Part shown: positions 4,683-53,000 of the stretch, in pieces | How the letters are laid out: the number at the start of each line of letters is the position of its first letter | Numbering within the stretch: position 1 is the first letter of the stretch | Assembly: GCA_964345385.1 (NCBI GenBank) | Contig: CAYFQM010000003.1 | Span: forward strand, 1-58,342 | Source: an uncultured Clostridium sp. | Lineage (GTDB): Bacteria; Bacillota_I; Bacilli_A; RF39; UBA660 | Length of the DNA: 58,342 nt | Reading direction: 5' to 3' | Translations under genes and position numbers: made by a program | Notes under the pieces: model-generated | Seen by the model: only the letters and a program-made list of their open reading frames with translations | Told to the model about the DNA's origin: nothing | Databases searched by the model: none

Positions 4683-5615
4683 ATGAGGGCTAAAACATTT
4701 AAAACATTAGATGAACAAATAGAAATTCTTAAAAATAAAGGTTTAATAATTACTGATTATGATCATACAAAAGAAACATTACTAAGAGAAAATTATTTTT
4801 TTATAAATGGATATAGAAGTCCTTTTTTTCAACCAGGTACTAAAAAATTTATTGAAGGAACTACTTTTGAAGAGTTATATTCTTTATTTACGTTTGATAG
4901 ATATTTTAGGAATGTATTATTTAAAAATATTTTAATAGTTGAAAATAACTATAAATCAATTTTTAGCTATGTACTAAGTAAAAAATACGGTTATAAAGAA
5001 AAAGAATATTTAAATGTTAAAAATTTTGGTAATAAAAAAGAACAACATAGGCAAATAAACGATTTAATAAGAAAAATAAAAAGACAAATTAGAATAAATG
5101 GAACACAGCATGATGCTACTTCACACTATATAAACAATTATGGCTATATACCAATGTGGGTAGGAATAAAAGTTCTTAGTTTTGGTTTGGTAAGTGAATG
5201 TTTTTCTATATTAATAGAAGTAGATAGAGAAGAAATTTCTTCTTATTATAACAATATTAATACTGAAACACTGGAAGACTACTTAAATGTAGTTTCAAAT
5301 TATAGAAATATATGTGCTCATGAAGATATATTATTTAATCATAGAACTCAAAAAGACTTACCAGAAACAAAATATCATAATTTATTAAATATACCTAAAT
5401 TAGATGGAGAATATATATATGGGATGCATGATATATTTGCTTTAATAATAATATTAAAGCATCTATTAACACCTACTGATTTTAAAATGATGATGAATGA
5501 AGTAAATTATGAAATAGAATGGTTAAGTCAAAAACTAAAAAGTATAAATATTAGTAAAATTCTTTATAGAATGGGATTTCCAAGTAATTATAAAGATATT
5601 ACTCAAATGAATTAG
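4683..5615 (+). CDS. Abi_2 (AbiD/AbiF-like) abortive-infection family protein
   Basis: 310 aa with family hallmarks as I recall them: NYFFINGYR, FDRYFRNVLF, PMWVGIKVLSFGL and SNYRNICAHEDILFN (RNxxAH motif). Confidence 0.8.
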   Translation: MRAKTFKTLDEQIEILKNKGLIITDYDHTKETLLRENYFFINGYRSPFFQPGTKKFIEGTTFEELYSLFTFDRYFRNVLFKNILIVENNYKSIFSYVLSKKYGYKEKEYLNVKNFGNKKEQHRQINDLIRKIKRQIRINGTQHDATSHYINNYGYIPMWVGIKVLSFGLVSECFSILIEVDREEISSYYNNINTETLEDYLNVVSNYRNICAHEDILFNHRTQKDLPETKYHNLLNIPKLDGEYIYGMHDIFALIIILKHLLTPTDFKMMMNEVNYEIEWLSQKLKSINISKILYRMGFPSNYKDITQMN

Positions 5616-9445: not shown

Positions 9446-9643
9446 TTATTTAAGCATATAGCTTTCATCTTTTTTTAAATTTATCCCTAATACATTATAT
9501 ATTCCTTCATGCATCCAAGGTCTATATCTTGCTAATAAAGGATTGTCTCTAGTTGGATGTACCCTATTAGATAATAGTGTTATTGCAATTTTATTACCTC
9601 TATCTATAGAAATGCTTGTTCCTGTAAACCCTCTAAAAAACAA
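9446..9643 (-). pseudogene. C-terminal remnant of a beta-lactamase-family serine hydrolase
   Basis: Only about 65 codons. ...GFTGTSISIDRGNKIAITLLSNRVHPTRDN matches the conserved C-terminal block of class-C beta-lactamase/PBP-like hydrolases. The frame opens right after the tandem TAA TAA that ends rpsI, with no SD and no ATG (TTG only). Confidence 0.55.
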
Positions 9644-9658
9644 AAAAGTATTGCTTTA

Positions 9659-10057
9659 TTATCTCTTACTAAATTGTGGAGCTTTACGAGCTTTTTTAAG
9701 ACCATATTTTTTTCTTTCTTTGTTTCTTGGATCTCTTGTTAAAAACCCTTGCTCTCTAAGTATTACTCTGTTTTCAGGATCAATTAAAGTTAAAGCTTTT
9801 GCTATTGCTAATCTTATAGCTCCAGTTTGGCCTTCCAAACCTCCACCTTTAACGCTTACTTTTATATCATATTTATCTCCATTACCAGTTAATATAAGTG
9901 GTTGTTTCAAATCTAATATTGATGTTTCATTTGATAAATATTTTTCTGCTTCTACTCCATTAATTGTAATTTTACCTGTTCCTTTTACTAATATTGCATT
10001 TGCTGTACTTGTTTTTCTTCTTCCAACAGCACTATATTCATTTATTTTATCTGTCAT
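9659..10057 (-). CDS. rpsI: 30S ribosomal protein S9
   Basis: 132 aa ending ...[18 protein letters not shown]. Confidence 0.97.
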
Positions 10058-10058
10058 A

Positions 10059-10490
10059 TTATTTTACCTCCAATTGTGTTGGTTTTTGAGCTTCATGCTT
10101 ATGATTAGAATCTTCATATACAAATAACTTTTTAAACATAGCTCTTCCTAATCTTCCTTTTGGAAGCATTCCTTTAACTGCTCTTTCAATCATTTCAACC
10201 GGATATTTTTCAATCATAGTTTTAGCAGTTCTTTTTCTTAGTCCACTTGGATATCCACTATGATTATAATAAATCTTGTCTTCTAATTTATTTCCAGTTA
10301 ATATTACTTTTTTTGCATTTACAATAATTACATTGTCTCCACAATCTACATGTGGAGTAAATGTTGGTTTATGTTTTCCACGAAGTATACTTGCAGCAAG
10401 TGTTGCCACTTTACCTAAAGTTTTATCTTCTGCATCAATAATAAACCAATCACGTTTAATATCTTCTTTTTTTAACATAAATGTTTTCAT
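10059..10490 (-). CDS. rplM: 50S ribosomal protein L13
   Basis: 143 aa. ...[38 protein letters not shown]... Confidence 0.97.
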
Positions 10491-10719
10491 TTCATTTTCC
10501 CTTCTTTGTGTTTACCAATATCTTTTTTCCCAAGAAAGACACTCTCAATCACAAATGTACCGCGTTTATTATATAAAAAGAAAAGGAAAAAGTCAAATAA
10601 AAATAGTAAATTTAACATATTATTTAGTACAATTTATATAAGTCAAGTAAAACATATATTCTTGACAAAATGTTCTTATAATTATAAAATTAATATAGCT
10701 ACTATAGGAGGAGTTATTT

Positions 10720-17364: not shown

Positions 17365-17988
17365 TTATTTTTGTAACTTTTTCAATTCTTGATAATATAA
17401 AGTTAAACAAGCATTAAAATATGGTAATGTCCAAATAAACAGAATTCCTAGGGTTAAACATGAAAGCAAATACCATCCTAAGAATGACAACATTAATAGG
17501 AAATATTCTGTTTTATGACCATCCATCATTTTTTTACTAGCTTTTATAGCATTTATTCCCTCATAAATATTATCTTCTGGATCATCAGCAAATATAAATG
17601 CAATTTGCGAATACATACATGATAATATAATACCAGGAACTATTAAAAAAGATCCTAATGAAATAAGTAGTCTTGCTACTAATAATTGAAGAATTAAATT
17701 TAATGGTTTCTTAGTATATTGTTCTTTAAATGCTTCAATAATATCAATTTCTCTTCCATTAACTAGATTCAAATAATACTTTTGTACTCCAATACTTGCT
17801 GGTATTATAGCAAAACTTGTTAAATACCGTAATACTGAGCCAATAAATGGTGAAAAAACAAAAATTAACGATATTACAATACTAATAATTAAATAAAACA
17901 GTGTTAACCATAATACTGGCTTCCAAAAATTTAATTTGTTTTTACTAGATATTTCTCTTGCTTTTAACTTTAACTCTTTTATATTCAT
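17365..17988 (-). CDS. DUF975-family integral membrane protein
   Basis: Start moved to the ATG at 17986-17988, behind an AAAGGAG SD. MNIKELKLKAREISSKNKLNFWKPVLW... followed by 4-5 TM segments, typical of DUF975 as I recall it. Confidence 0.7.
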   Translation of the reverse strand: MNIKELKLKAREISSKNKLNFWKPVLWLTLFYLIISIVISLIFVFSPFIGSVLRYLTSFAIIPASIGVQKYYLNLVNGREIDIIEAFKEQYTKKPLNLILQLLVARLLISLGSFLIVPGIILSCMYSQIAFIFADDPEDNIYEGINAIKASKKMMDGHKTEYFLLMLSFLGWYLLSCLTLGILFIWTLPYFNACLTLYYQELKKLQK

Positions 17989-18074
17989 AAATGTTGCTCC
18001 TTTCACAATCATTATATCATAGAATATATTAAATTAAATACATTTTTTCCGTTCTTTTTTATAACTATATTTTC

Positions 18075-18103
18075 TTTACAAAAAAACACTATTATGATAT
18101 AAT
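18075..18103 (+). promoter_or_regulatory. Near-consensus sigma-70 promoter: TTTACA, 17 nt, TATAAT, with a TGn extension
   Basis: tttaca at 18075-18080, a 17-nt spacer ending ..atga, and tataat at 18098-18103. Confidence 0.6.
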
Positions 18104-18109
18104 AATTTT

Positions 18110-18588
18110 GTGTGGAGCATTATTCTAGTCAGAGAAATTATCCGAAGATGGGGCTAAAAATCCATTAATTGTGTTATAAGATACTTTATATATTTTGCTT
18201 CTTTCGCCCAGATTGGGGCATTTATATAATTTAAGATTTAAGGATGTTGTATAACGGCATATACATTAATTCCTTCTATCACATCATTTATATAAAAAAA
18301 CATATGTCGTGAGTGATCTATTGGGATATTTTATTGAAAAATAGATTGCAAAAGCGAATAACGATAGGTTTCGATGTTTGGGAAAACCTCTAGACTGTCT
18401 ATATTATAAGGATTGAAGTGCGGACTAAGTGGTGATCGAGTGATCAATGTGGCAACACTTGATTTATATTATTAAAGAGAAATCGCCTAAAGGTAACTAA
18501 AGGTTAAATATAAGAGAAAGTCAACTCGACCAAAGCCGTAAAATTAATTTATAATATTCCATACGAAAATCCCGTTGAAAGGATTATT
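18110..18588 (+). ncRNA. Unclassified structured RNA candidate or long 5-prime leader of the 18589 gene
   Basis: No ORF of 60 codons or more on either strand. My hand count is 134 G+C in 420 nt (18121-18540, about 32 percent), against 33 in 180 (about 18 percent) for the spacer 21241-21420. Local hairpins are at 18313-18349, 18366-18389 and 18442-18464; the last has a GCAA tetraloop on the plus strand only. Confidence 0.4.
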
Positions 18589-19101
18589 ATGAAAAAAGAT
18601 AATTGGATATTAAAGGCATTTTTAATGACTTTTTTTATAGCTTTATTTTTTAACGGAGCATCAAATTTAATAATTGAAAAATGTTCTTATATAGCTCTTA
18701 TTATATTATTAATATCATTTGTATTTATTGGAGTTTTTTTTGATATTATTGGAACAGCGGTACTAACTGCAAAAGAAGCTACTTTTCACGCAAAGAACTC
18801 AAAAAAAATTAAAGGGGCTGTTGAAAGTATTAAATTAATAAAATCTCAAAATCAAATTGCATCTATATGTAATGATATCATAGGAGATATATGCGGAATA
18901 ATTAGTGGATCTATTACAGCGATGTTATCAATATATATTTCTAATCACCTTAATATATCTATTATCTTAATTACGTTGATTTTATGTTCTCTTGTAAGTT
19001 CTATCACTGTTGGATGCAAAGCAATTGGAAAAAAATATGCTATTAATAATAGTGATAAAATAATAGAACAAGTTGGTAAATTTATTTCATTAATAAAATA
19101 G
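18589..19101 (+). CDS. Small membrane protein resembling a stand-alone CNNM/DUF21 transmembrane domain
   Basis: 170 aa, 4 TM. FFDIIGTAVLTAKEATFHAKNSKKIKGAVESIKLIKSQNQIASICNDIIGDICG follows the DUF21 pattern as remembered. No CBS or CorC domains follow. Confidence 0.45.
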   Translation: MKKDNWILKAFLMTFFIALFFNGASNLIIEKCSYIALIILLISFVFIGVFFDIIGTAVLTAKEATFHAKNSKKIKGAVESIKLIKSQNQIASICNDIIGDICGIISGSITAMLSIYISNHLNISIILITLILCSLVSSITVGCKAIGKKYAINNSDKIIEQVGKFISLIK

Positions 19102-19126
19102 ACTTAATTAAATAAGTCTATTTTTT
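19098..19126. terminator. Bidirectional terminator between the DUF21-like gene and the Fic gene
   Basis: atagactta attaaa taagtctat followed by ttttt. Confidence 0.7.
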
Positions 19127-19139
19127 AATTTGTTTGATT

Positions 19140-20216
19140 CTAACTAATTAATATGTCATGCATACTAATATATTTAAATGTTACTCGGTTTGTTCCTTTC
19201 CTTTTTTCTTTATATAAATAGCCTGATTCTACTAATTTATTTAAAACCTTATTTACAGAATTAATATGTAATTTAGTATCATTAACAATATCTGCTGTAG
19301 AAAAAACTATTCTTCTTATTATTGAAGGATAAACTTTATATATTGTTGTACCACCTATATCTTTTTTAAATTTTTTAATATCTCTTTCATATATTTTATT
19401 TATTTTTTTAATTTTTTTAATATTTATATTACATTGATCTATTATACATTCTAAAAAGAATTTAATAAATCTTTCAGTTTCTTTTTCATCAACTGTACTT
19501 AGTGAAGTAAAATAAGTGTTTTTTAAATTATACATACTTTCAGAAATAAACAATATTGGTGGTTCCTTTTTATATTTAGATAGTTGTAACACTAATAATA
19601 ATCTTCCTAATTTTCCATTTCCTGTTATATAAGGATGCAACCTTTCAAATTGCATATGTGAAAAAGCAACTGATATAAATGGATCATCCTCTGTTTCGTT
19701 AAAATATTCACAATAATTTTTAATATATTTATTTAGTTCATTATGAATAACAGGTATAAACGAAATACTAGATCCGGCAATGCCAGGCTTTAATAAATAT
19801 GTTTGTTTTTTTCTTAAATGACCGCTTCCTTTTATTATATTTGTCTTCTTACATCCAATAAACATCATTTTATGCATTTGATTAAGTGACAATATTGATA
19901 TATCATTTTTTATTATATTTGTAATTCCATACATAAAAGAAGATATCATATTTTTAAATTGTGTTACTTCATTATTTTTCATCATATATTGAATATAAAA
20001 CATATCTTCTTTTTCATATTTAGAATTATCTATTTTAAACGAATAAAACATTTCATTTATTAACATAGATTCTAACATTAATTTATAATCAAACGACATT
20101 GATTTTAAAAAACCTTTATACTCTCCATATACTTCATAAGCATCCATAAGTAATTTTAATGTGTTTTTATCTAAAACATATTCATATGGTAATTTTTTAG
20201 GTACATAAGCTTCCAT
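19140..20216 (-). CDS. Fic/DOC-family protein with a C-terminal winged-helix-like domain
   Basis: Fic motif region FERLHPYITGNGKLGRLLL, compared with canonical HPFx[DE]GNGRxxR. The C-terminus ...NKLVESGYLYKEKRKGTNRVTFKY looks like a wHTH. Confidence 0.85.
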   Translation of the reverse strand: MEAYVPKKLPYEYVLDKNTLKLLMDAYEVYGEYKGFLKSMSFDYKLMLESMLINEMFYSFKIDNSKYEKEDMFYIQYMMKNNEVTQFKNMISSFMYGITNIIKNDISILSLNQMHKMMFIGCKKTNIIKGSGHLRKKQTYLLKPGIAGSSISFIPVIHNELNKYIKNYCEYFNETEDDPFISVAFSHMQFERLHPYITGNGKLGRLLLVLQLSKYKKEPPILFISESMYNLKNTYFTSLSTVDEKETERFIKFFLECIIDQCNINIKKIKKINKIYERDIKKFKKDIGGTTIYKVYPSIIRRIVFSTADIVNDTKLHINSVNKVLNKLVESGYLYKEKRKGTNRVTFKYISMHDILIS

Positions 20217-20803: not shown

Positions 20804-21163
20804 TTAATAAGGATTTGGATATTCAAATAACCCAAAACCTTCCCCTGATAACCAATATATTTTATTTCCTCTTATTTTCAACTTATATATTATTTTATAT
20901 TTAACTTCTTTTTCATTTGAAAAAATATAAACTATTGTTGTTTCGCCATTTTTCCTCGGTTTAAATACCCACTTATCCTCTTCTTTTGATTCTAAAGTTA
21001 ATATATTATTAGAAATAAAATAATTCCACTTGTAACCTTCCTCTTTAAAATTATATTTTATTGTAAAAGTGTCTTTATATATTTTTAAATATCTTGGTTT
21101 ATATAAAAAAATACCTATGCAAATTATAAAAGTTACAATAAACATAAAATATATTTTTTTCAT
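20804..21163 (-). CDS. Hypothetical small secreted or anchored protein
   Basis: Start moved to the ATG at 21161-21163, behind a GGAGAAAT SD. MKKIYFMFIVTFIICIGIF signal anchor followed by a beta-rich domain. No family recognised. Confidence 0.45.
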   Translation of the reverse strand: MKKIYFMFIVTFIICIGIFLYKPRYLKIYKDTFTIKYNFKEEGYKWNYFISNNILTLESKEEDKWVFKPRKNGETTIVYIFSNEKEVKYKIIYKLKIRGNKIYWLSGEGFGLFEYPNPY

Positions 21164-21645
21164 ATTTCTCCTTAAACAAAAAGTAACCAATTCTGATAAA
21201 ATTTAGTTACTTCGAGTTTTACCAAATAATTAAATCATTAATACTAAATGCTTAAATTTAATATTAATTTTACTATATATTATCAGTATATAGTATAATT
21301 ACTAATCATTTTGAGTTTTCTTTCTCAATGAAATTCCATACGACCATAGTAGATTAGATTTCTAGCTTAATTTAATAAGCGTATAATTTATTCTATATCT
21401 TTATAATAAATTTAGTATTACTAGTAAATTCAAATTAATGAAAATGTTCGTAACCTATTAGATATTACATATTAACATAAAACAAATTAATTTAGAAATT
21501 TTTTGACTAATAAACAATATGTTACTTAAATATATAAAGAGATTATCTAAATATAAAAAAGCACTTATATTTGTTTATCTTTAGGTCTAATTATATTTTA
21601 AAGTATTATTTTCAATTTGTCAACATATTTTTTAAATATTTTACA

Positions 21646-37046: not shown

Positions 37047-37511
37047 ATGAAATATGAAATTAATATGAATACAGAATCTATTATTCCAATAAATGGTGAA
37101 AAAACAAAAATATATGAAAATGGCTTAGAAAAAATAGTAAATATTAATTCATTAAAAATAATAGAAAGAAGCTGTGAATTTTTTGGAAGTTCTTTAGATG
37201 GAAGAAAAATTGGTACTAAATCATTATTAGGAATAACACATAAAGCACCAATTATAATTGAAGAAACAAGAAAAATAATATTTTTTCCAACAACATCTCC
37301 AAATAGAGAAGATTGTATATGGATAAATTTAGATCAAATACAACAATATTGTGAAAATCCATTAAATACTTCTTCTATAATATTTAAAAAAGGAAATATT
37401 TTAGATTTGGATATGTCAATAGGTTCATTAACTAATCAAATATTAAGAGCATCAAGATTAAAATGTATTTTAGAAGAAAGAATTAATAATAAAAAAGATA
37501 TATTTATATAA
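37047..37511 (+). CDS. comK: ComK-family protein
   Basis: IIERSCEFFGSSLDGRKIGTKSLLGITHKAPIIIEETRKIIFFPTTSPNREDCIWI is colinear with B. subtilis ComK IVDRSCRFFGSSYAGRKAGT...ISHKPPIMV...IFLFPTLSS...CGWI (recalled). AAGGAGG SD. Confidence 0.75.
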   Translation: MKYEINMNTESIIPINGEKTKIYENGLEKIVNINSLKIIERSCEFFGSSLDGRKIGTKSLLGITHKAPIIIEETRKIIFFPTTSPNREDCIWINLDQIQQYCENPLNTSSIIFKKGNILDLDMSIGSLTNQILRASRLKCILEERINNKKDIFI

Positions 37512-37613: not shown

Positions 37614-38700
37614 ATGAATATTAGGAAAATAGAATTATATAATTTTAGATGTTATAAATATTTAAAAATTGATAAATTTTCTAATTTAAATATAATTATA
37701 GGATCAAATGGTATTGGAAAGACTTCAATATTAGAATCTATATATTTAGGAAGTTTAACAAAAACGTTTAAATCAAATGATGATTTAAGTGTTATAAAAA
37801 GTGGAGAAGATTTTACTAAAATAAAAATAAAAGTATTTAATGATTTTATTAATAATAATTTGGAATTTATAATGACTTCTAAAGGAAAAAATACAAAAAT
37901 TAATGATTTTGTACAAAAAAAATTAAGTAATTATATATGTTATTATAACGTGATGCTATTTTCTCCAGATGAAGTAAAGATTATAAAATCTGCTCCTAGT
38001 ATTAGAAGAAATTATTTTAACGTAGAAATATCTCAAATAGATAAAGAATATATTAAGTTATTAAATAATTATAATAAAGTTGTAAAAAATAAAAACGAAT
38101 TTTTAAAAAAAATAATGTTAAATAATAATTTAGATTATAACTATTTAGATATTAGATGAAAAATTGGTAGAAATAGGATTAAAAATTTATAATTGTAGAA
38201 AAAAATATATAAATAATATTAATATGTTAATTACAAAAAAATTTAATAATTTTAGAAAAAAAGATACTTTAATTATTGATTATGTTTCAGATTTTAATTT
38301 AAATAATAAAGAAAAAATATTAAAACTAATAAGAAAAAATAGAAATAAAGAAATTAACATAGGAATGAGTAATATAGGAATACACAGAGATGATTTTGTT
38401 TTTATTCATAATAATATGAATGCTAAAGATTTTAGTTCACAAGGAACTTTAAAATTAATAATATTATCAATGAAATTATCAGAAGTAGAAATTTTTAATA
38501 AAATATATAATAAAAAGCCAATTCTTTTATTAGATGATTTGTTTAGTGAATTAGACAAAGAAAATAAAAATAAAATATTTAAATTATTAAATAAGGAATC
38601 TCAAATATTTATTACTTCAACAGATATAAATAATATAGATAAAAAAATAATAAATAAAGCAAAAATTTTTGATTTAAGTGAAAGGAAAAAATATGAATAA
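37614..38700 (+). pseudogene. recF: recF split by a frameshift at 38146-38160
   Basis: The N-terminal ORF (Walker A GSNGIGKTSILE) ends at TGA 38157-38159. The C-terminal part (LLLDDLFSELD Walker B) continues in the +1 frame from 38149 (..ILDEKLVEIGLK). Removing 38151-38157 (attagat), or removing a single nt, restores one ORF of about 360 codons. Confidence 0.85.
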
Positions 38701-40612
38701 CGAATATAAAGAAAGTGATATACAAGTACTAGAAGGATTAGAAGCAATAAGAAAAAGACCTGGAATGTATATAGGTACAACTGATTTAAAAGGTTTACAT
38801 CATTTAGTGTGGGAAATAGTAGATAATTCAATAGATGAAGCATTAGCGGGTTATTGTAATAATATAGAAATAGTTATAAACAAAGATAATTCTATAACAG
38901 TTAAAGATAATGGAAGAGGAATACCTGTGGGAAAACATCCAAAAACTGGAATATCAACAGTAGAAACTGTATATACAATTTTACATGCTGGGGGAAAGTT
39001 TGGTGGTGGTGGATATAAAGTATCAGGTGGTCTTCATGGAGTAGGAGCAGCTGTCGTAAATGCTTTATCAAAATGGTTGATTGTAACTGTATATAAATCT
39101 GGAAAAATATATCAAGCAAAATTTGAAAATGGCGGAAAAATAATTCAAAATTTGCAAGAAATAGGAGAGTGTGAATTAAATAGAACAGGAACAATTGTTT
39201 CTTTTAAACCAGATTCGGATATATTTGATAGTGATGTTTATGATTATAATATTTTAAAAATTCGTACTAGAGAATTAGCTTTTCTTAATAAAGGATTAAA
39301 AATTACTTTGAGAGATGATCGTGATGATGAAGATACTCAAGGTGAAGTATTTATGTATGAAGGTGGAATAAGTGAATATGTAAATTTTATTAATAAAGAA
39401 AAAAAAGTTTTAAATAATGAAGTCATACACTTATCTGGTGAAAGAAAAGATGTTATTTTTGAAGTAGCTTTTCAATATAATACAGGATATAATGAGAGTA
39501 TTTATTCTTTTGTAAATAATATTAATACTCATGATGGAGGTACCCATGAAGATGGAGTAAGAAGGGCTTTAGTTAGAGTTATAAATAATTATTCAAGAAA
39601 AACAAATTTATTAAAAGAAAAAGATGAAAATTTAAGAGAAGATGATGTAAAAGAAGGATTAACAATGATTATTTCTTGTAAACATCCAAATCCACAATTT
39701 GAAGGACAAACAAAAGGAAGATTAGGAAATTCTGAAGTTAGAGTAATAGCAGATAATATTTTTGCCGAAGGATTAGAACAATATTTGTTAGAAAATCCTG
39801 ATGAAGCAAAAATAATAATAAATAAAGCAATTTTAGCAAGAAATGCAAGAATGGCAGCAAAGAAAGCAAGAGAAGCAACAAGAAACAGTGATCTAGCTAT
39901 GACCAATTTTTTTGGTAAGTTAACAGATTGTAAAAGTAAAGATCCATCTATCTCTGAATTATTTATAGTTGAGGGAGATAGTGCGGGCGGATCAGCAAAA
40001 AAAGGAAGAAACTCATTTACACAAGCAATACTTCCTCTAAGAGGAAAAATTTTAAATGTTGAAAAAGCAAGAGAAGACAAAGCTTTAGGAAATGAAGAAA
40101 TAAAAACAATAATAACCGCTTTAGGAACAGGAATAAGAGAATATTTTGATTTATCTAAATTAAGATATGACAAAATAATAATTATGACTGATGCAGATGT
40201 AGATGGATCACATATTAGAGTATTATTATTAACATTGTTTTATAGATTTTTTAGACCAATAGTAGAAGCAGGCCATATATATGCTGCACAACCTCCATTA
40301 TTTAGAATAATGCATGGGAAAATGAGAAAATATGTTTTAAATGAAAAAGAATTGGAAACATATATGAAATCTTTACCAGAAAATATTAGAGAAAAGGCAG
40401 AAATAGCTAGAATGAAAGGTCTTGGAGAAATGGATGCTGAAGAATTAAATGAAACAACAATGGATATTAATAAAAGAACATTAAGAAAAATTACTGTTCA
40501 AGATTGTATTGATGCAGATTTAACATTTCAAAAATTAATGGGCGATGAAGTAGAGCCAAGACGTAATTTTATTGAAGAAAACGCTGGATATGTACAAAAT
40601 CTTGATATATAA
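38693..40612 (+). CDS. gyrB: DNA gyrase subunit B
   Basis: [23 protein letters not shown] and [12 protein letters not shown]. The ATG at 38693 has an AAAGGAAAAA SD and overlaps the recF stop. Confidence 0.97.
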
Positions 40613-40623
40613 GGAGGTTTATA

Positions 40624-43095
40624 ATGGAAGAAAATAATATAAAAAAAGAAGAAAAAATTAATTCAAATGTAATAGTAGAAGAAAAAGACAAAATAATTAA
40701 CAATGATATCGTTAAAGAGGTAGAAAAATCATTTCTTGAATATTCTATGAGTGTTATAGCTTCAAGAGCATTACCAGATTTAAGAGATGGATTAAAGCCA
40801 GTTCATAGGAGGATATTATGGTCAATGTTTGAATCAGGATATACTCCTGATAAACCTCATAAAAAAAGTGCAAAAACAGTTGGTGAAGTAATGGGAAATT
40901 ATCATCCTCATGGAGATGCATCAATATATGATGCTATGGTGAGGTTAGCTCAAGAATATAATCAGAGATATATGTTAGTGGATGGGCATGGTAATTTTGG
41001 TAACATTGAAGGAGATAGGGCCGCAGCAATGCGATATACAGAATCTAGATTATCTAAAATATCATTAGAATTATTAAGAGATATTAATAAAAATACAGTT
41101 GATATGGAAAATAATTTTGATGAAACTAGAAAAGAACCAACAGTTTTACCTTCAAGATTTCCTAATGTTTTAGTGAATGGATCTATGGGTATTGCGGTAG
41201 GTATGGCAACAAATATTCCTCCACATAATTTAGGTGAAGTAATAGATGGGTGTGTGGCATATATAGATAATCCAGCTATTGATATATATGGTTTAATGAA
41301 ACACATTAAAGGTCCAGACTTTCCTACTGGTGGAATTATTTTGGGGAATTCTGGTATAAAAAAAGCATATGAAACAGGTAGAGGATCTATAACAATAAGA
41401 GGTAAAGCTATTATTGAAGAATATAAAAATAATAGTGCTATTATTTTTACAGAAGTTCCATATGGAGTAAATACTATGGAATTAAAAAATAAAGTCGCAG
41501 AATTAGTAAATAATAAAACAATTGAAGGAATTTCAGATTATCATACTGATTTAAAAGATGGAATTAAAATAACAATAACATTAAAAAAAGATGCGAATGC
41601 TCAAGTGGTTTTAAATAATTTATATAAATATACATCATTTCAAATAAATTATGGAATAATATTATTAATGTTGGACGGATTAACTCCAAGAACTTTATCG
41701 TTAAAAGACATAATAGTTAAATATGTAGATTATCAAAAAGAAATAATTATTAGAAGAACTAAATTTGAATTAGCAAAAAACGAAAAAAAAGTACACGTTT
41801 TAGAAGGTTATAAAATAGCTTTGCAAAATATTGATGAAGTTATTAAGATAATTAAAAATGCAAAAAATGATGAAGAGGCAAAAACTAAATTAATTGATAG
41901 ATTTGGTTTAGATTTAATTCAATCAGAAGCAATATTAGAATTAAAATTAAGAAGATTAACAGGGTTAGAAAGAGAAAAAATAGAATTAGAACTAGAAGAT
42001 TTATTAAAAGAAATTAAAAAATTAAAATCAATTTTAGAATCAGAACAAAAAGTTTTAAATATAATTAAAGAGGAAATGTTGGAAATTAAAACAAAATATG
42101 GTGATGAAAGAAAAACAACAATTGATATGACAGCTGTTGATTATATTGAAGATGAAGCTTTAATACCAGAAGAAAACATTTTGTTAACAATAACACAAAA
42201 AGGATATATAAAAAGACTTACAAGCGATACTTACAGAACTCAAAATAGAGGTGGAGTTGGAGTTAGAGGTATGTCTGTTGTTGAAGATGATATTGTAGAC
42301 CAAATTATTAATTTAAGTACACATGATTATGTATTATTTTTCACAAACAAAGGAAAAGTATATAGAATAAAAGGATATGAAATACCAGAATATTCAAGAA
42401 ATGCAAAAGGATTACCAATTATTAATTTATTACCAATAGATAAAGATGAAAAAGTAAATGCAATAATAAAAATGGAAGCAGAAAATGAAAATAAGTATTT
42501 TGTATTTGTAACTAAAAAAGGTTTAATAAAAAGAACGCTGGTGTCTGAGTTTGATAATATTAGAAGTAACGGAAAAATTGCAATTACGTTAAAAGAAGAT
42601 GATGAATTAATTTCTGTTAAAAAAACAAATGGTGACAATAAAATATTAATGTGTTCTTCAAACGGAAGAATGGTTAGATTTGAAGAGCAAGAAGTTAGAG
42701 TAATGGGAAGAACAGCATCGGGAGTAAGAGGAATCAATTTATCAAATGATGTATGTGTGAGTGCAGATATTTCAGATGATTCTGACTTGGTTTTAATTGT
42801 TACTGAAAAAGGATATGGAAAGAAAACTAAAGTAACAGAATATAGGCAAACAAAAAGAGGTAGTAAAGGAGTAAAAACTTTAAATATTACTGAAAAAAAT
42901 GGAAAAGTTGTAGGATTTAAAATTGTTAAAAAAGATAATGATTTAGTAATTATTACAGATGAGGGAACAGTAATTAGAATTAATTTAGAAGCAATATCTA
43001 CGATGGGAAGAGTAACGCAAGGAGTAAAATTAATTAACTTAAAAAATTCTAATAATGTAGTATCTATGTCGTTAGTTGAAAAGGAAGAAGAATAA
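40624..43095 (+). CDS. gyrA: DNA gyrase subunit A
   Basis: RALPDLRDGLKPVHRR, the AAMRYTE active-site Tyr context, and C-terminal beta-pinwheel repeats. Confidence 0.97.
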   Translation: MEENNIKKEEKINSNVIVEEKDKIINNDIVKEVEKSFLEYSMSVIASRALPDLRDGLKPVHRRILWSMFESGYTPDKPHKKSAKTVGEVMGNYHPHGDASIYDAMVRLAQEYNQRYMLVDGHGNFGNIEGDRAAAMRYTESRLSKISLELLRDINKNTVDMENNFDETRKEPTVLPSRFPNVLVNGSMGIAVGMATNIPPHNLGEVIDGCVAYIDNPAIDIYGLMKHIKGPDFPTGGIILGNSGIKKAYETGRGSITIRGKAIIEEYKNNSAIIFTEVPYGVNTMELKNKVAELVNNKTIEGISDYHTDLKDGIKITITLKKDANAQVVLNNLYKYTSFQINYGIILLMLDGLTPRTLSLKDIIVKYVDYQKEIIIRRTKFELAKNEKKVHVLEGYKIALQNIDEVIKIIKNAKNDEEAKTKLIDRFGLDLIQSEAILELKLRRLTGLEREKIELELEDLLKEIKKLKSILESEQKVLNIIKEEMLEIKTKYGDERKTTIDMTAVDYIEDEALIPEENILLTITQKGYIKRLTSDTYRTQNRGGVGVRGMSVVEDDIVDQIINLSTHDYVLFFTNKGKVYRIKGYEIPEYSRNAKGLPIINLLPIDKDEKVNAIIKMEAENENKYFVFVTKKGLIKRTLVSEFDNIRSNGKIAITLKEDDELISVKKTNGDNKILMCSSNGRMVRFEEQEVRVMGRTASGVRGINLSNDVCVSADISDDSDLVLIVTEKGYGKKTKVTEYRQTKRGSKGVKTLNITEKNGKVVGFKIVKKDNDLVIITDEGTVIRINLEAISTMGRVTQGVKLINLKNSNNVVSMSLVEKEEE

Positions 43096-43209: not shown

Positions 43210-43238
43210 TTGTATATTTTTAAAAAGTATGATATATT
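43210..43238 (+). promoter_or_regulatory. Promoter of the SRP RNA gene (TTGTAT, 17 nt, TATATT)
   Basis: ttgtat at 43210-43215 and tatatt at 43233-43238. The helix of the RNA begins 7 nt downstream. Confidence 0.5.
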
Positions 43239-43244
43239 TAATTC

Positions 43245-43315
43245 GATGCAATGTGTAGTTTTGAAAGGGTCAGGATTGGAAAATAGCAGCCATAAAAAAC
43301 AAAACATGTGCATCA
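43245..43315 (+). ncRNA. ffs: Small (4.5S-like) signal recognition particle RNA
   Basis: GGGTCAGGATTGGAAAATAGCAGCC matches the domain IV consensus GGUCAGGUCCGGAAGGAAGCAGCC, including the GGAA tetraloop. The closing helix is GATGCAATGT / ACATGTGCATC, followed by T6. The position next to tadA-dnaX is typical for Firmicutes. Confidence 0.75.
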
Positions 43316-43334
43316 CTTTTTTATGAGGAAAGAT

Positions 43335-43739
43335 ATGGAAAAAATTATAAAAACGTTAGATAAAGAAATGAAAAAAGCCGCTAATAAAAAAGAGGTGCCT
43401 ATAGCTGCATTGATAATGAAAAACAATGTAGTGTTATGTTCGGCACATAATTCTAAAATAAGTAAAAATGATCCTACAGCTCACGCAGAAGTAATATGTA
43501 TAAAAAAAGCTTCTAGAATATTAAATACAAGCAACTTAGGCGACTGTGAATTATATGTTACTATAAAACCATGCAAAATGTGTGAATATATAATTAATGA
43601 AGCAAGAATAAAAAAAGTATATTATTTTTATGAAAATAATAAAAAAATAAATATAACGACAAAATATGAAAAAATAATATTAGACAAAACAGAATTTATG
43701 TCGAAAAAACTAAGTGGCTTTTTTAAAACAATAAGATAG
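43335..43739 (+). CDS. tadA: tRNA-specific adenosine deaminase
   Basis: HAEVICI (HAE) and PCKMCEYII (PCxxC) zinc motifs. I prefer the ATG at 43335, with a GAGGAAAG SD, over the track start at 43308, which lies inside the SRP RNA. Confidence 0.85.
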   Translation: MEKIIKTLDKEMKKAANKKEVPIAALIMKNNVVLCSAHNSKISKNDPTAHAEVICIKKASRILNTSNLGDCELYVTIKPCKMCEYIINEARIKKVYYFYENNKKINITTKYEKIILDKTEFMSKKLSGFFKTIR

Positions 43740-49485: not shown

Positions 49486-50060
49486 AATTAATTGTAGGGT
49501 TGGGAAATCCAGGAATAAAATATAAAAAGACAAGACATAATATTGGTTTTATGATAATAGATTATTATTCTAAGAAAAACAAATTAAATTTTAAAGAAAA
49601 ATTCAGTGGGTTATATTGCGAAACAAAAATAAATGAAGAAAAAGTTATATTATTAAAGCCCAAAAGTTATATGAATAATTCTGGCGATGTAGTAAAAAAA
49701 TATGTTGATTATTATAACATAGAAATAAAAAATATATTGGTTTTTTATGATGATATAACATTTGAGGCAGGTACATTTAGAATAAAAAAAGATGGATCAT
49801 CAGCTGGTCACAATGGGATTAGTGATATAATTTTAAAATTAGCCACAAAAGATATTCAAAGAGTCAGAATAGGAACTGGAAAAAACAATATAAATTTAGT
49901 TAATTATGTACTAGGCAAAATTCCTCAAAAAGATATGTGTAAAATAAACGATATTATCCCAATATTATCTCAAATAATAGATGATTTTATGGTATTAAAC
50001 ATCGAACAATTAATGCAAAAGTACAATAAGAAAGAAATAAATGAAAACTCAAATATATAA
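49482..50060 (+). CDS. pth: Peptidyl-tRNA hydrolase
   Basis: MKLIVGLGNPG..Y..TRHNIGF, SYMNNSG, and GHNG. Confidence 0.95.
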   Translation: MKLIVGLGNPGIKYKKTRHNIGFMIIDYYSKKNKLNFKEKFSGLYCETKINEEKVILLKPKSYMNNSGDVVKKYVDYYNIEIKNILVFYDDITFEAGTFRIKKDGSSAGHNGISDIILKLATKDIQRVRIGTGKNNINLVNYVLGKIPQKDMCKINDIIPILSQIIDDFMVLNIEQLMQKYNKKEINENSNI

Positions 50061-53000
50061 TAAAATATTTGACTTTGATATAACTAAAACTAAAAATATA
50101 TATATATCAAAAAATGAAATTTATAATCAACTATTATTATATATATATTTTAATACTGATCAAAATTTATTGTTGGTTTTTTCAACTTTAAATGAAGCAA
50201 CAGAAGTATATAGAGCACTTAAAAATTATATAGATGAAGTGTATATTTTTCCTGAAGATGATTTCATTACAAAAACGGCAGTTGCGACCTCACCAGAACT
50301 GTTATTTTTAAGATTAAATTTATTATATAATATTAAAAAAAATACTAAAAAAATAGTAATTGTTCATTATAATAGTTTTATAAAAAAATTACCTAATAAA
50401 AATGAATATAATAATCAAAAATTAGAGTTATCAATTGGAAAAGAGATTAAAAGAGAAAAATTAATAAATAATCTGTTAGATTTAGGTTATAAAAAAGAAA
50501 GCCTAGTAACTAATACTTCAGAATTTTCGGTAAGAGGGTATGTTATAGATGTTTTTCCTATTCATGAAGAAAAACCATTTAGAATAGAATTTTTTGATGA
50601 TGAAATAACTAAAATAATTAATTTTGATACATTAACACAGTTATCAAGTAAATATAAAGAAACAAAAAATCTTGCTATTTATTCGGTAAAAGAAAGCTTT
50701 GGAGAAGAAAACAGCAACATAATTGAATATTTGAATAATCCTATAATAATATATACGAATTATAATGAAATATTAAAAGTGGAAAAAGCATTAATTCCTC
50801 AAATCAATTATTTAAATATTAAAAACAAATTATTTGATTTAAAAAAACTTAAAACTAAAAACGATATATATATTAATACAGTTGATAATGAAGGCAAGTA
50901 TGATTTGAAAATAGAAGCAATAACGATTGAAAATCATTTGGATAATAAAAAAACATTTTATGATAGTGTTATGAAAAACAATGGAATTGTGTTTTCTTTG
51001 AATGATAAAGTAATTAATGAGTGTAGTAAAAACAATATAACAGTTTATAAACAATATTTACATAGTAGTTTTAAATACAAGAATGTTTCGTATTATTCTT
51101 CAAACGAAATTGTTAATTTAAATAAGCAAAACAAACAAACTTCATTATATAAATACGGAAGCAAAATAAATGAGTTAGATAAAATAAAAAAAGGAGATTA
51201 TGTAGTTCATAAAAAGTCTGGGATTGGTATATATGGCGGTATAAAAACCATTTTAAAAAACGGATTAAAAAAAGATTATGTGTTAATTTTATATAAAGGA
51301 AAAGATAAATTATATGTTCCGGTAGAAGATATAAGCAAATTATATAAATATTCTGGAAAAGAGGGAGCAAAACCTACAATACATAGATTAAATAGTGTTG
51401 AGTGGGTTAAGACAAAACTTAAAATTAAAAAAAGAATAAGAGATATAACAAACGAATTAATAAAAATATATAAAGAAAGAAGTAAAGCTAAAATTAAACC
51501 TTTTTCAAAAGATGATGCAAGTCAACTTTTGTTTGAACATGAATTTGAATATGAAGAAACTCTAGATCAATTAAAAGCAACAATTGAAATAAAAAAGGAT
51601 TTAGAAAAAAATATACCAATGGAAAGACTTTTATGTGGGGATGTTGGTTATGGAAAGACAGAGGTAATTTTTCGGGCAATATATAAAACAGTAATGAATA
51701 ATTACCAAGTAGCGTATTTGTGTCCAACTACAATTTTATCTTTTCAACAATATAATAATGCAATAGAAAGATTTAAAAATTATGGTGTTAATATAGATAT
51801 AATAAATCGTCATTTTACAGAAAAACAAGTAAAAGAAAAAATTGAAAATTTGAAAGAAGGAAAAACAGATGTTATTTTTGGTACTCATAGATTACTAAGC
51901 AAAGATATAATTTTTAATAGGTTAGGTTTGTTAATTATTGATGAAGAACATAGATTTGGGGTAGAACAAAAAGAAAAAATTAAATCTTTAAAATCTAATG
52001 TTCATGTTCTTTCTGTATCTGCAACTCCAATACCTAGATCATTACAAATGTCTTTGGTAGGAATAAGAGATATGTCTTTATTGGATACAGCTCCTAAAAA
52101 TAGATATCCTGTTCAAACTTATGTTATAGAATATAATGAAATGTTAGTTAGAGAGGCAATACTTAAAGAAATGTCAAGAAAAGGACAAACCTTTATTTTA
52201 TATAATAGAATAATTAATATGGAATTTACATTTGAAAAAATAAAAAAGTTAGTACCAGAAGCTAGAATATGTTATGCGCATGGACAAATGAATAAAGAAA
52301 AACTACAAGACGTAATAATTGATTTTAATAATTATGTATATGATGTATTAGTAAGTACTACAATAATAGAAAATGGTATTGATATACCAAACGCTAACAC
52401 AATAATAATTATGGATTCTGATCAGTTGGGTTTAGCTCAATTGTATCAACTTCGTGGTAGAGTTGGAAGAAGTGATAAAATTGCATATGCATATTTAACT
52501 TATAAAAAACAAAAAATATTAACAACCACTGCAAAGCAAAGATTAGATGCAATTAAAGAATTTACAGAATTAGGAAGCGGTTATAGAATTTCTATGAGAG
52601 ATTTAGCAATAAGAGGTGCAGGAGATATTTTAGGAAGTGAACAAGCGGGTTTTATTGATTCTGTTGGTGTAGACATGTATATGGATTTAATTAATGAAGA
52701 AATAAATGGTATAGAAGATAATATAGAAGAAGAAATATTGCCTATAGATGTTCAAACTCATATTGATGAAAGTTATACAAATGATAACTCCATTATTATA
52801 GAACTGCATAAAAAAATAAATAATATTAAAAAGAAAAAAGATTTTGAAGAAGTATATAATGAGATAAAAGATAGATTTGGAAAAGTTGATGAAAATTTAA
52901 AAATATATATGTATGAAAAATATTATGAACAATTAATTCAATTATTGAAAATTCAATTATTTGAGAATGATGATTTAAAAATAACTTTTAAATTAAAAAA

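What the first reader, a model, noticed from the sequence alone, without database searches (positions are those of the whole stretch)
18075..18588. GC-enriched transcript of about 480 nt behind a near-consensus promoter that fits no RNA class I can recognise
- **No coding signal:** the 576-bp gap between the DUF975 gene and the DUF21-like membrane gene has no ORF of 60 codons or more on either strand.
- **Elevated G+C:** it is visibly GC-richer than other spacers. I hand-counted about 32 percent across 18121-18540, against about 18 percent for 21241-21420. In AT-rich genomes this is typical of structured RNA.
- **Promoter:** it starts right after a TTTACA, 17 nt, TGnTATAAT promoter.
- **Hairpins:** 18313-18322 pairs with 18340-18349, 18366-18371 with 18384-18389, and 18442-18464 forms a stem capped by a GNRA (GCAA) loop on the plus strand only.
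- **Recurring words:** G[GA]GCAU at 18114 and 18214, with a partial GGCAU match at 18255; CCGAAGAUGGGGC/CCCAGAUUGGGGC; GAGUGAUC at 18310 and 18437.
- **3-prime end:** a short AAUCC/GGAUU hairpin overlaps the SD of the downstream gene.
- **Interpretation:** the length is far beyond a normal riboswitch. It could be a large ornate RNA, tandem regulatory elements, or a new leader for a CNNM/DUF21-type (possibly Mg-related) membrane protein.
Basis: partly seen in the sequence, partly recalled or inferred. Interest (0 to 1): 0.72.

Follow-up and report, generated by a model that had tools for sequence, protein, structure and literature searches.

The report
Compact OLE RNA with oapA gene
The "unclassifiable" 480-nt transcript is a copy of OLE RNA, a known large membrane-associated bacterial noncoding RNA, in its published shortened form and next to its usual partner gene oapA, so it is real but already known.

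Summary
The 576-bp gap is non-coding and richer in G+C (31% against 24% for the window). It starts at a near-consensus promoter and is highly structured.

It does fit a known class. Rfam's OLE model (RF01071) matches 18096-18578 (+) end to end at 213.9 bits (gathering score 50, E 8e-59). The 170-aa gene directly downstream is oapA, the defining membrane-protein partner. 49 of 50 loci fetched through oapA homologues carry OLE directly upstream on the same strand.

The RNA is 483 nt rather than about 600. It lacks hairpins P7 and P8, the distal part of P9, and P11. That fits the "variant 2" OLE RNAs described by Fernando and Breaker (mSphere 2024) for reduced-genome gut Bacilli of the RF39 clade.

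In 27 compact homologues, 62 of 114 base pairs show compensatory changes, and the promoter is conserved in position. The hairpin over the ribosome-binding site is neither significant nor conserved, so the riboswitch or leader reading is not supported.

Verdict: already known; low interest. The only small additions concern the minimal core: the P9 dimer contact is lost, and the OapB-type P13 hairpin is kept.

The parts
18075..18103 (+). Sigma-70-type promoter, TTTACA-17 nt-TG-n-TATAAT. The predicted start is near 18109-18111, at the first base of P1.
   Evidence: 11 of 12 matches, extended -10; the same promoter lies 8-12 nt upstream of the conserved core in 27/27 compact OLE loci.
18096..18578 (+). 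OLE RNA (Rfam RF01071), compact 'variant 2' form. The structured core, from P1 5' strand to P1 3' strand, is 18110-18564.
   Evidence: 213.9 bits, E 7.6e-59, model 1-616 untruncated. (114 pairs, 98.3% paired, 62 with compensatory changes, 0 of 500 shuffles as high). (helix coordinates).
18121..18128 (+). P2 5' strand (UAUUCUAG) with an invariant CUAG palindrome. It pairs with 18390-18397 (CUAGACUG). This is the region reported as one OapA-binding site.
   Evidence: Binding-site assignment is from PMC12265935 (citing Block et al. 2011).
18147..18166 (+). P4 hairpin with the invariant A-rich loop GCUAAAAA. This loop is a dimerisation centre in cryo-EM models of full-length OLE.
   Evidence: invariant columns. 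PMC12265935, section 4.
18186..18229 (+). P5/P5.1 hairpin with a GCCCA loop, the kissing-loop partner of P6.1.
   Evidence: (10 of 16 pairs with compensatory changes).
18240..18275 (+). P6/P6.1 hairpin with an ACGGCA(U) loop.
18276..18306 (+). A/U-rich 31-nt joiner that replaces hairpins P7 and P8 (about 80 model positions).
   Evidence: local ends at model 198-241 (44 positions replaced by 14 nt) and 242-277 (36 replaced by 7 nt). One search shows P7 and P8 in a full-length OLE; the joiner is 29-47 nt in all 27 compact copies.
18307..18357 (+). Truncated P9: 14 base pairs closed by the 17-nt loop GGGAUAUUUUAUUGAAA. The long distal helix and its palindromic kissing loop are absent.
   Evidence: 48 model positions replaced by 3 nt. 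(full-length comparison)..
18401..18557 (+). Domain 2: P12 (18401-18410/18548-18557), P12.1, P12.2 (18436-18441/18524-18529), P13, P14 and P14.1. The P11 hairpin is absent, with a 3-nt joiner at 18398-18400.
18443..18463 (+). P13 hairpin, AUCAA-U(bulge)-GUG GCAA CAC UUGAU. It keeps the GNRA tetraloop and single-nucleotide bulge that form the OapB-binding site in H. halodurans.
   Evidence: fold, z -3.1.. Site definition from PMC7936274.
18589..19101 (+). oapA, a 170-aa membrane protein with four hydrophobic segments and a DUF21/CNNM-type transmembrane domain only. The loop at residues 61-86 is lysine-rich.
   Evidence: >1000 homologues, some with PF01595. (own CNNM hit below threshold, E 0.003). 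(aligns with OapA of full-length-OLE species; invariant D52, D96, D100, K144, K148). (hydropathy). (OLE upstream in 49/50 loci).
19095..19126 (.). AT-rich terminator hairpin with a 12-bp stem and flanking A and U runs. It lies between the convergent oapA and fic genes and is the likely end of the OLE-oapA transcript.
   Evidence: sequence. (-11 kcal/mol, z -5.3, 0 of 200 shuffles as stable).

Best explanation
This is an ole gene encoding OLE (ornate, large, extremophilic) RNA in its compact 'variant 2' form. It is transcribed together with oapA from one sigma-70-type promoter and ends at a terminator just beyond oapA.

**Shown here**
- The RNA adopts the conserved OLE fold: P1-P6, a short P9, P10, and P12-P14.1.
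- It keeps the sequence elements that make dimer contacts in full-length OLE: the A-rich P4 loop and the complementary P5.1 (GCCCA) and P6.1 (GGC) loops.
- It keeps the CUAG palindrome regions assigned to OapA binding.
- It sits next to a bona fide OapA gene.

**Inferred from work on Halalkalibacterium halodurans and Clostridium OLE RNAs**
- OapA, a four-helix membrane protein related to CorB/CNNM/MpfA Mg2+ transporters, binds the RNA and anchors it at or in the membrane.
- The RNA forms a homodimer.
- The particle helps the cell cope with stresses such as cold, short-chain alcohols, excess Mg2+ and poor carbon sources. It most plausibly does this by modulating OapA-linked ion handling.

In this reduced-genome lineage the RNA has lost P7, P8, distal P9 and P11. 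It probably works with OapA as the only dedicated partner. The biochemical activity of OLE RNA is not established for any species.
For: - **Model match:** one search gives a full-length, untruncated match to RF01071 at 213.9 bits (gathering score 50), E 7.6e-59. One search finds no other Rfam family at E <= 1 on the plus strand of 18000-19200; the only other row is a chance-level minus-strand hit (E 0.99) under the terminator.
- **Structure:** in 27 compact homologues RNAalifold recovers the OLE architecture, including long-range P1, P2 and P3. Of all cells, 98.3% are paired. 62 of 114 pairs carry compensatory changes, against 40 +/- 2.8 in shuffles (0 of 500 as high) and 14-21 in slid controls.
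- **Partner gene:** 49 of 50 loci found through homologues of the downstream protein carry OLE directly upstream on the same strand. The one exception is a 29%-identical proteobacterial DUF21 protein. The protein aligns with OapA from species with full-length OLE (Thermoanaerobacterium, Caloramator, Aliibacillus), has four hydrophobic segments and a lysine-rich loop.
- **Variant:** P7, P8, distal P9 and P11 are missing here and present in a full-length copy. PMC11332333 defines variant 2 as lacking P7 and P8 and as common in RF39.
- **Transcription unit:** the promoter is conserved in position, and there is no terminator before oapA in this window. A terminator follows oapA.
Against: - The bit score is less than half that of full-length OLE RNAs (400-529 bits).
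- The GA dinucleotide of the OapC k-turn in J4a/5 is not present in register.
- The distal P9 kissing loop, one of four reported dimer contacts, is absent. Assembly may therefore differ from the cryo-EM models.
- OapA's own Pfam CNNM hit is below threshold (17.7 against 28.4 bits).
- No expression, localisation or phenotype data exist for this organism.
- The function of OLE RNA is unresolved in every species.
Confidence: 0.96

Rival explanations
1. A cis-acting leader or riboswitch, possibly Mg2+-responsive or made of tandem elements, that controls expression of the downstream DUF21/CNNM membrane gene.
For: - The RNA lies directly upstream of the gene and is co-transcribed with it, 24 nt from the start codon with no intervening terminator.
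- The gene family is related to Mg2+ transporters (source names).
- A small hairpin can cover the ribosome-binding site.
Against: - No riboswitch or leader family matches at E <= 1.
- The hairpin over the ribosome-binding site is no better than shuffles (z -0.69) and is not conserved in relatives.
- In eight relatives a terminator and a second promoter separate OLE from oapA, so the RNA is made independently of the mRNA.
- The published biology is a trans-acting ribonucleoprotein (PMC12265935, PMC9723947).
Confidence: 0.02
2. A decaying, non-functional remnant of OLE RNA in a reduced genome. On this reading the deletions of P7, P8, distal P9 and P11 are steps towards loss.
For: The low bit score and several missing substructures. 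The clade reportedly lacks OapB and OapC (PMC11332333).
Against: - 29 independent compact copies share the same architecture, with 71% mean identity among the 27 aligned.
- There are many invariant blocks and 62 base pairs with compensatory changes.
- The promoter is conserved.
- oapA is intact and conserved.

This pattern indicates purifying selection.
Confidence: 0.02
3. A degraded protein-coding gene, or a spacer with chance structure.
For: None beyond its length. The longest ORF is 38 aa.
Against: Every frame is interrupted. The covariance-model match has E 8e-59. Substitutions preserve base pairs rather than codons.
Confidence: 0.003

Closest known systems
OLE RNA 'variant 2' (Fernando and Breaker, mSphere 2024, PMC11332333)
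   Same: - Lacks P7 and P8 entirely.
- Falls in the lowest-scoring cluster of OLE hits.
- Found in low-GC, reduced-genome, uncultured gut or rumen Bacilli whose records are labelled Mollicutes, Tenericutes or Bacilli.
- oapA is adjacent.
- No oapB or oapC gene is seen in the 58 kb available.
   Different: No demonstrable difference. The text of that paper mentions only the P7/P8 loss for variant 2. Here, and in most compact relatives, distal P9 (23 of 27) and P11 (25 of 27) are also missing. I could not see their Figure 1 to tell whether this is already shown. Their score cut-offs (235-310 bits) come from their own model and cannot be compared with Rfam scores.
Full-length OLE RNA (Rfam RF01071; H. 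halodurans, Clostridium and Thermoanaerobacterium copies of about 600 nt)
   Same: - All hallmark conserved blocks and loops: GUGG(A/U)GCAUUAU-CUAGUC, the CUAAAAAU loop, the GCCCA loop, the AAUGGCAU loop, GGAAAACCUCUAG, GGACUAAGUGGU and GACCnAAGCCGUAAAAUU.
- Helices P1-P6, P9 (base), P10 and P12-P14.1.
- P13 with its GNRA loop and bulge.
- Synteny with oapA.
   Different: - About 120 nt shorter.
- No P7, P8, distal P9 (so no P9-P9 kissing loop) or P11.
- The k-turn GA in J4a/5 is not in register.
- 31% G+C against about 46%.
- It has a dedicated promoter abutting P1, rather than lying inside a long multigene operon as reported for H. halodurans.
OLE RNA 'variant 1' (TANB77 clade)
   Same: A shortened OLE in reduced-genome gut Bacillota, with a short P9.
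   Different: Variant 1 keeps short P7 and P8 stems and often lacks the OapB-binding end of P13. This RNA has no P7 or P8 and keeps P13 with its GNRA loop and bulge.
Other large ornate bacterial RNAs (ROOL, GOLLD, raiA) and Mg2+ riboswitches (M-box)
   Same: They are large, GC-enriched, highly structured non-coding RNAs. For the M-box there is also a link to Mg2+-related genes.
   Different: None of these families matches at Rfam gathering score in the window, or at E <= 1 in 18000-19200.

Membership tests
OLE RNA (RF01071) | Covariance-model score at or above Rfam's gathering score over the whole model | tested here: met
   213.9 bits against 50, E 7.6e-59, model 1-616, not truncated.
OLE RNA (RF01071) | Conserved multi-helix architecture supported by covariation | tested here: met
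   114 pairs in 20 helices, 98.3% paired. 62 pairs have compensatory changes, against 40 +/- 2.8 in shuffles (0 of 500) and 14-21 in slid controls.
OLE RNA (RF01071) | Hallmark conserved loops and joiners: the P4 A-rich loop, the P5.1 GCCCA loop, the P6.1 AAUGGCAU loop and the domain 2 blocks | tested here: met
   these positions are invariant across the 27 compact copies and match the Rfam consensus.
OLE RNA (RF01071) | oapA gene immediately downstream on the same strand | tested here: met
   OLE lies upstream in 49 of 50 oapA-homologue loci.
OLE RNA (RF01071) | Host in Bacillota, typically an anaerobe or extremophile | tested here: inconclusive
Relatives' record titles read Bacilli, Mollicutes, Tenericutes, Erysipelotrichaceae or Clostridium MAGs from gut or rumen. 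Gene content (SpoVG, ComK, DivIC, an Fe-only hydrogenase, and the rnpA-dnaA-dnaN-recF-gyrBA order) fits an anaerobic Bacillota genome.
OLE RNA (RF01071) | Length of about 600 nt, with P7, P8 and a long P9 | tested here: not met
   483 nt, with P7 and P8 absent and distal P9 absent. This is the published variant form, not grounds for exclusion from the class.
OLE RNA (RF01071) | Binds OapA and localises to the membrane; forms a homodimer | not testable with these tools
   Needs biochemistry or imaging. Only the sequence elements involved (CUAG palindromes and the P4, P5.1 and P6.1 loops) could be shown to be kept.
OLE variant 2 (PMC11332333) | Complete absence of P7 and P8 | tested here: met
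   (local ends over model 198-277). (a 31-nt joiner at 18276-18306). for comparison with a full-length copy.
OLE variant 2 (PMC11332333) | Falls in the lowest of three bit-score clusters (235-310 bits with the authors' model) | tested here: inconclusive
   With the Rfam model my hits are bimodal: 203-262 bits for the compact copies and 400-529 bits for the full-length ones, with nothing between. The authors' model was not available, so their cut-offs cannot be applied.
OLE variant 2 (PMC11332333) | Host in the RF39 clade (GTDB), largely lacking oapB and oapC | not testable with these tools
   No GTDB taxonomy or whole genome was available. No KOW (OapB) or L7Ae (OapC) family protein was found among the window's ORFs, but 58 kb is too little sequence to conclude absence, and three large ORFs (38678-40612, 40624-43095, 50041-53202) were prepared but left out of the scan.
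OapA | Small protein (about 170-180 aa) with four transmembrane helices, a DUF21/CNNM transmembrane domain without CBS or CorC domains, and a basic cytoplasmic loop | tested here: met
   (four hydrophobic segments; 8 basic residues in 61-86). (alignment with OapA of full-length-OLE species; 13 invariant residues, including D52, D96 and D100). (homologues carry PF01595). Its own Pfam hit is below threshold (17.7 against 28.4 bits).
Riboswitch / cis-regulatory leader | An aptamer of a known class plus an expression platform (terminator/antiterminator or sequestration of the ribosome-binding site) that is conserved | tested here: not met
   (no riboswitch or leader family at E <= 1). (no terminator between the RNA and the gene). 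(the hairpin over the ribosome-binding site has z -0.69). (that hairpin is not conserved, and some relatives place a terminator plus promoter in between).

The most novel reading that the evidence does not exclude
The compact copies may define a natural minimal OLE core of about 450 nt. This core dispenses with P7, P8 and P11, and also with the distal P9 arch and its kissing loop, one of the four dimer contacts in full-length OLE. The OapC k-turn may be gone too. Yet the P13 GNRA loop and single-nucleotide bulge are strictly kept, and these form the OapB site in H. halodurans, in a clade reported to lack OapB. If so, the P13 features would serve an RNA-intrinsic role (the tetraloop docking into P12.2) or bind a different protein. 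OapA alone would then be enough for the essential function.
Probability: 0.35. Interest if true: 0.3.

Novelty: already known. Interest (0 to 1): 0.12.

Why it matters
For genome annotation it matters only that this spacer should be labelled ole (OLE RNA) and the downstream gene oapA.

For OLE specialists, the compact copies are a natural deletion series. They show which parts of this still-mysterious membrane RNA can be lost and which cannot.
- **Dispensable:** P7, P8, the distal P9 arch and P11.
- **Kept:** P1-P6, the base of P9, P10, P12-P14.1, and the P4, P5.1 and P6.1 loops.

That could guide the design of minimal constructs for structural and functional work. None of this changes what is known about the class.

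Tried and rejected
- **Protein family scans of the downstream gene:** Pfam and NCBIfam gave nothing above threshold. Identity as OapA rests instead on homologues, synteny and alignment.
- **Organism identity:** The look-up of encoding contigs returned only a 2-kb Logan contig, with no information on the organism. The listing of cluster members gave no name for the window's own protein. Placement in RF39 is therefore inferred from relatives' titles and the literature, not tested.
- **OapC k-turn:** by eye, the GA of J4a/5 is not in register in the window, and the compact consensus reads AAUGAUAC against CGAUGAAG in the Rfam consensus. I could neither establish nor exclude an alternative register, so this is left as inconclusive.
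- **Hairpin over the ribosome-binding site as a regulatory element:** rejected (z -0.69; not conserved).
- **oapB and oapC in the window:** I scanned the window's ORFs against Pfam and found neither. Three large ORFs, the presumed gyrB, gyrA and mfd, were left out of the call and their names rest on size and position only.
- **Odd ORFs at 9543-10641:** my greedy ORF picker chose antisense ORFs there. These turned out to lie opposite rpsI and rplM, so they are not a feature.
- **Alternative genetic code (table 4):** this did not improve ORFs in that region, and TGA is used as a stop codon.
- **PGK motif:** a literature search returned nothing specific.

Full report
**1. Observation**

- The gap between the DUF975 gene (17365-18012, minus strand; Pfam DUF975, E 7e-27) and the next gene (18589-19101, plus strand) is 576 bp. 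Its longest ORF is 38 aa.
- G+C is 31.9% over 18121-18540 and 18.3% over 21241-21420. The window mean is 23.8%, and only 3% of 483-nt windows reach the level of this stretch (profile).
- The promoter TTTACA-17-TGaTATAAT at 18075-18103 is the best match in the region (11 of 12, with an extended -10).
- The recurring words are present within 1-2 nt of the stated positions.
- Two of the three main hairpins belong to the conserved fold. The third, 18366-18371/18384-18389, is complementary in this sequence, but its 3' arm overlaps P10 of the consensus fold, so it is probably incidental.
- The one detail that fails is the AAUCC/GGAUU hairpin over the ribosome-binding site. It folds no better than shuffled sequence (z -0.69; 47 of 200 shuffles as good), and relatives lack it.

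**2. Identity**

A scan of the whole window against Rfam 15 at gathering thresholds gives a full-length, untruncated match to OLE RNA (RF01071) at 18096-18578 (+). The score is 213.9 bits against a gathering score of 50, with E 7.6e-59.

A permissive scan of 18000-19200 finds no other family at E <= 1 on the RNA's strand. The only other row is a chance-level hit (E 0.99) to a microRNA model on the minus strand, under the terminator beyond oapA.

**3. The partner gene**

OLE RNA is defined in part by the gene that follows it, oapA.
- The downstream 170-aa protein has more than 1000 homologues of about 170-180 aa. Some carry the CNNM/DUF21 transmembrane domain PF01595, and some sources name them CorB-like. 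Its own Pfam hit is below threshold (E 0.003).
- It has four hydrophobic segments and a lysine-rich loop at residues 61-86. This matches the published description of OapA: four transmembrane helices and a basic cytoplasmic face (PMC12265935).
- It aligns along its length with the protein encoded next to full-length OLE RNAs in Thermoanaerobacterium, Caloramator, Aliibacillus and Schnuerera. There are 13 invariant residues, including D52, D96 and D100.
- I fetched 50 loci from species-representative genomes through this protein and scanned them with Rfam. 49 carry OLE directly upstream on the same strand; one of these is cut by a contig end.
- The only locus without OLE encodes a 29%-identical DUF21 protein from a proteobacterium, which serves as a negative control.

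**4. Why the RNA is short**

The hits fall into two separate groups.
- Full-length OLE RNAs are 572-645 nt and score 400-529 bits.
- Compact ones are 475-514 nt and score 203-262 bits. The window belongs to this group.

In the window's alignment to the model, two subtrees are skipped: model 198-241 and 242-277, with 44 and 36 positions replaced by 14 and 7 nt. The tip of the next long helix (48 positions) is replaced by 3 nt, and a 12-nt hairpin at model 424-435 is missing.

The same model aligned to a Thermoanaerobacterium OLE shows that these elements are hairpins P7 and P8, the distal part of P9, and P11.

In window coordinates:
- a 31-nt A/U-rich joiner (18276-18306) replaces P7 and P8;
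- P9 (18307-18357) is closed by a 17-nt loop, GGGAU...UGAAA;
- a 3-nt joiner replaces P11.

All 27 aligned compact copies have a 29-47-nt joiner. 23 have a 13-18-nt P9 loop, and 25 have the 3-nt joiner.

**5. Already published**

- Variant 2 RNAs "entirely lack P7 and P8" and are common in the RF39 clade. These are uncultured gut Bacilli with reduced genomes that largely lack OapB and OapC.
- The window has 23.8% G+C. Its closest relatives are gut and rumen MAGs labelled Bacilli, Mollicutes, Tenericutes or "uncultured Clostridium".
- The window's gene content is that of a Bacillota replication-origin region: rnpA, yidC, jag, mnmE, mnmG, dnaA, dnaN, recF, SRP RNA, dnaX, recR, spoVG, tilS and ftsH. 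gyrB, gyrA and mfd are inferred from ORF size and position only, because those three ORFs (38678-40612, 40624-43095, 50041-53202) were left out of the Pfam call.

This fits RF39, but I could not test GTDB placement.

**6. Structure and selection**

A MAFFT alignment of the window's RNA with 26 compact homologues has 71% mean identity and long invariant blocks.

RNAalifold, run without reference to the Rfam structure, recovers the OLE architecture. That includes the long-range helices P1 (18110-18116 with 18558-18564), P2 (18121-18128 with 18390-18397) and P3 (coordinates).

Counting that structure on the alignment gives:

| Measure | Observed | Shuffle control | Slid control |
|---|---|---|---|
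| Cells forming a standard pair | 98.3% | 85.1% | 35-44% |
| Pairs with compensatory changes (of 114) | 62 | 40 +/- 2.8 (0 of 500 as high) | 14-21 |

This excludes a decaying remnant or a chance fold.

**7. What is kept**

- **Dimer contacts:** the elements reported in cryo-EM models of full-length OLE (PMC12265935) are invariant here. These are the A-rich P4 loop (18153-18160) and the complementary P5.1 (GCCCA, 18206-18210) and P6.1 (ACGGCA, 18254-18259) loops.
- **OapA sites:** the CUAG palindromes in and opposite P2, a region assigned to OapA binding, are invariant.
- **P13:** P13 (18443-18463) keeps its GNRA tetraloop (GCAA) and single bulged U. These form the OapB site in H. halodurans (PMC7936274; fold).
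- **What is lost:** the fourth dimer contact, the kissing loop at the tip of P9, has no counterpart.
- **k-turn:** the GA dinucleotide of the OapC k-turn in J4a/5 (PMC9723947) is not in register. The window reads AAGAU--AC against CGAUGAAG in the consensus. I could not settle whether another register forms a k-turn.

**8. Transcription unit**

- The -10 box ends 6 nt before the first base of P1, so transcription should start at about 18109-18111.
- A TTGACA-17-TGnTATAAT promoter occupies the same position in all 27 compact loci. It scores 10/12 or better in 24 and has the extended TG in 25.
- In the window and its closest relatives, only 7-19 nt separate the end of the Rfam match from the oapA start codon. 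No terminator is found there, so the two genes are co-transcribed.
- A 12-bp AT-rich hairpin with flanking A and U runs (19095-19126) follows oapA. The GC-based terminator scan missed it.
- In eight more distant relatives an intrinsic terminator and a second promoter lie between OLE and oapA. The RNA is therefore a gene in its own right, not a leader.

**9. Mechanism**

*Shown here:* a conserved, promoter-driven, highly structured OLE RNA lies next to oapA.

*Inferred from published work in H. halodurans and Clostridium* (PMC12265935, PMC9723947, PMC10898510, PMC12054373):
- OapA binds the RNA and holds it at the membrane.
- The RNA dimerises.
- The particle is needed to tolerate cold, short-chain alcohols, excess Mg2+ and poor carbon sources.

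The biochemical activity is unknown in any species. My best guess is that it modulates OapA-linked divalent-ion handling, with OapA the only dedicated protein partner in this lineage.

**10. Verdict**

This is a correct detection of a remarkable RNA, but one that is in Rfam, and whose shortened form has been described. Novelty: already known. Interest: low.

The modest residue concerns the minimal core: distal P9 and P11 are also lost, and the OapB-type P13 features are kept in a clade said to lack OapB.

Noticed in passing
An AT-rich spacer can therefore also hold a catalogued structured RNA. The next gene on that strand is a 128-aa hypothetical protein (20804-21190), not a phosphoglycerate kinase.
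   Followed up: partly
window 43235-43329 (+): A bacterial small SRP RNA (RF00169; 50.8 bits) lies between the presumed gyrA ORF and tadA. The longest tadA ORF (43308-43739) overlaps it, so the real tadA start is probably further downstream.
   Followed up: no
window 37614-38700 (+): recF (Pfam SMC_N) is split into two ORFs in different reading frames (37614-38159 and 38164-38700). This is a frameshift, so it is either a pseudogene or an assembly error.
   Followed up: partly
window 37047-37511 (+): A ComK-family gene (Pfam ComK, E 2e-40) sits between dnaN and recF in the replication-origin region of a reduced genome.
   Followed up: no
window 19095-19126: An AT-rich terminator hairpin with flanking A and U runs lies between the convergent oapA and fic genes (-11 kcal/mol, z -5.3). 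The G+C-based terminator scan missed it.
   Followed up: yes
L014, L015, L019, L021, L023, L024, L026, L027 (between the OLE 3' end and the oapA start): In these relatives OLE is followed by an intrinsic terminator (for example ACUUUAAUU-ACGGGGAAAGACG-AAUUAAAGUUUUUUU) and a second TGnTATAAT promoter before oapA. In the window and its closest relatives the two genes are fused into one unit.
   Followed up: partly
window 18307-18357 and 18398-18400; A1 columns 253-301 and 362-374: Besides P7 and P8, the compact OLE RNAs lack the distal P9 helix and its kissing loop (23 of 27 copies) and the P11 hairpin (25 of 27). L020, L015 and L019 keep longer P9 insertions, and L022 keeps a P11-sized insert.
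   Followed up: yes
window 19140-20216 (-) and 4683-5615 (+): A Fic/DOC-family gene lies convergent with oapA, and an Abi_2 (abortive-infection-like) gene lies next to a LytTR response regulator. These may be toxin or defence genes in an otherwise housekeeping region.
   Followed up: no
L032 416-487 (-); L017 1175-1205 (+): The Rfam scans of related loci also found a Gut-1 RNA (RF01706) near a full-length OLE locus, and an L31 ribosomal-protein leader just downstream of oapA in L017.
   Followed up: no
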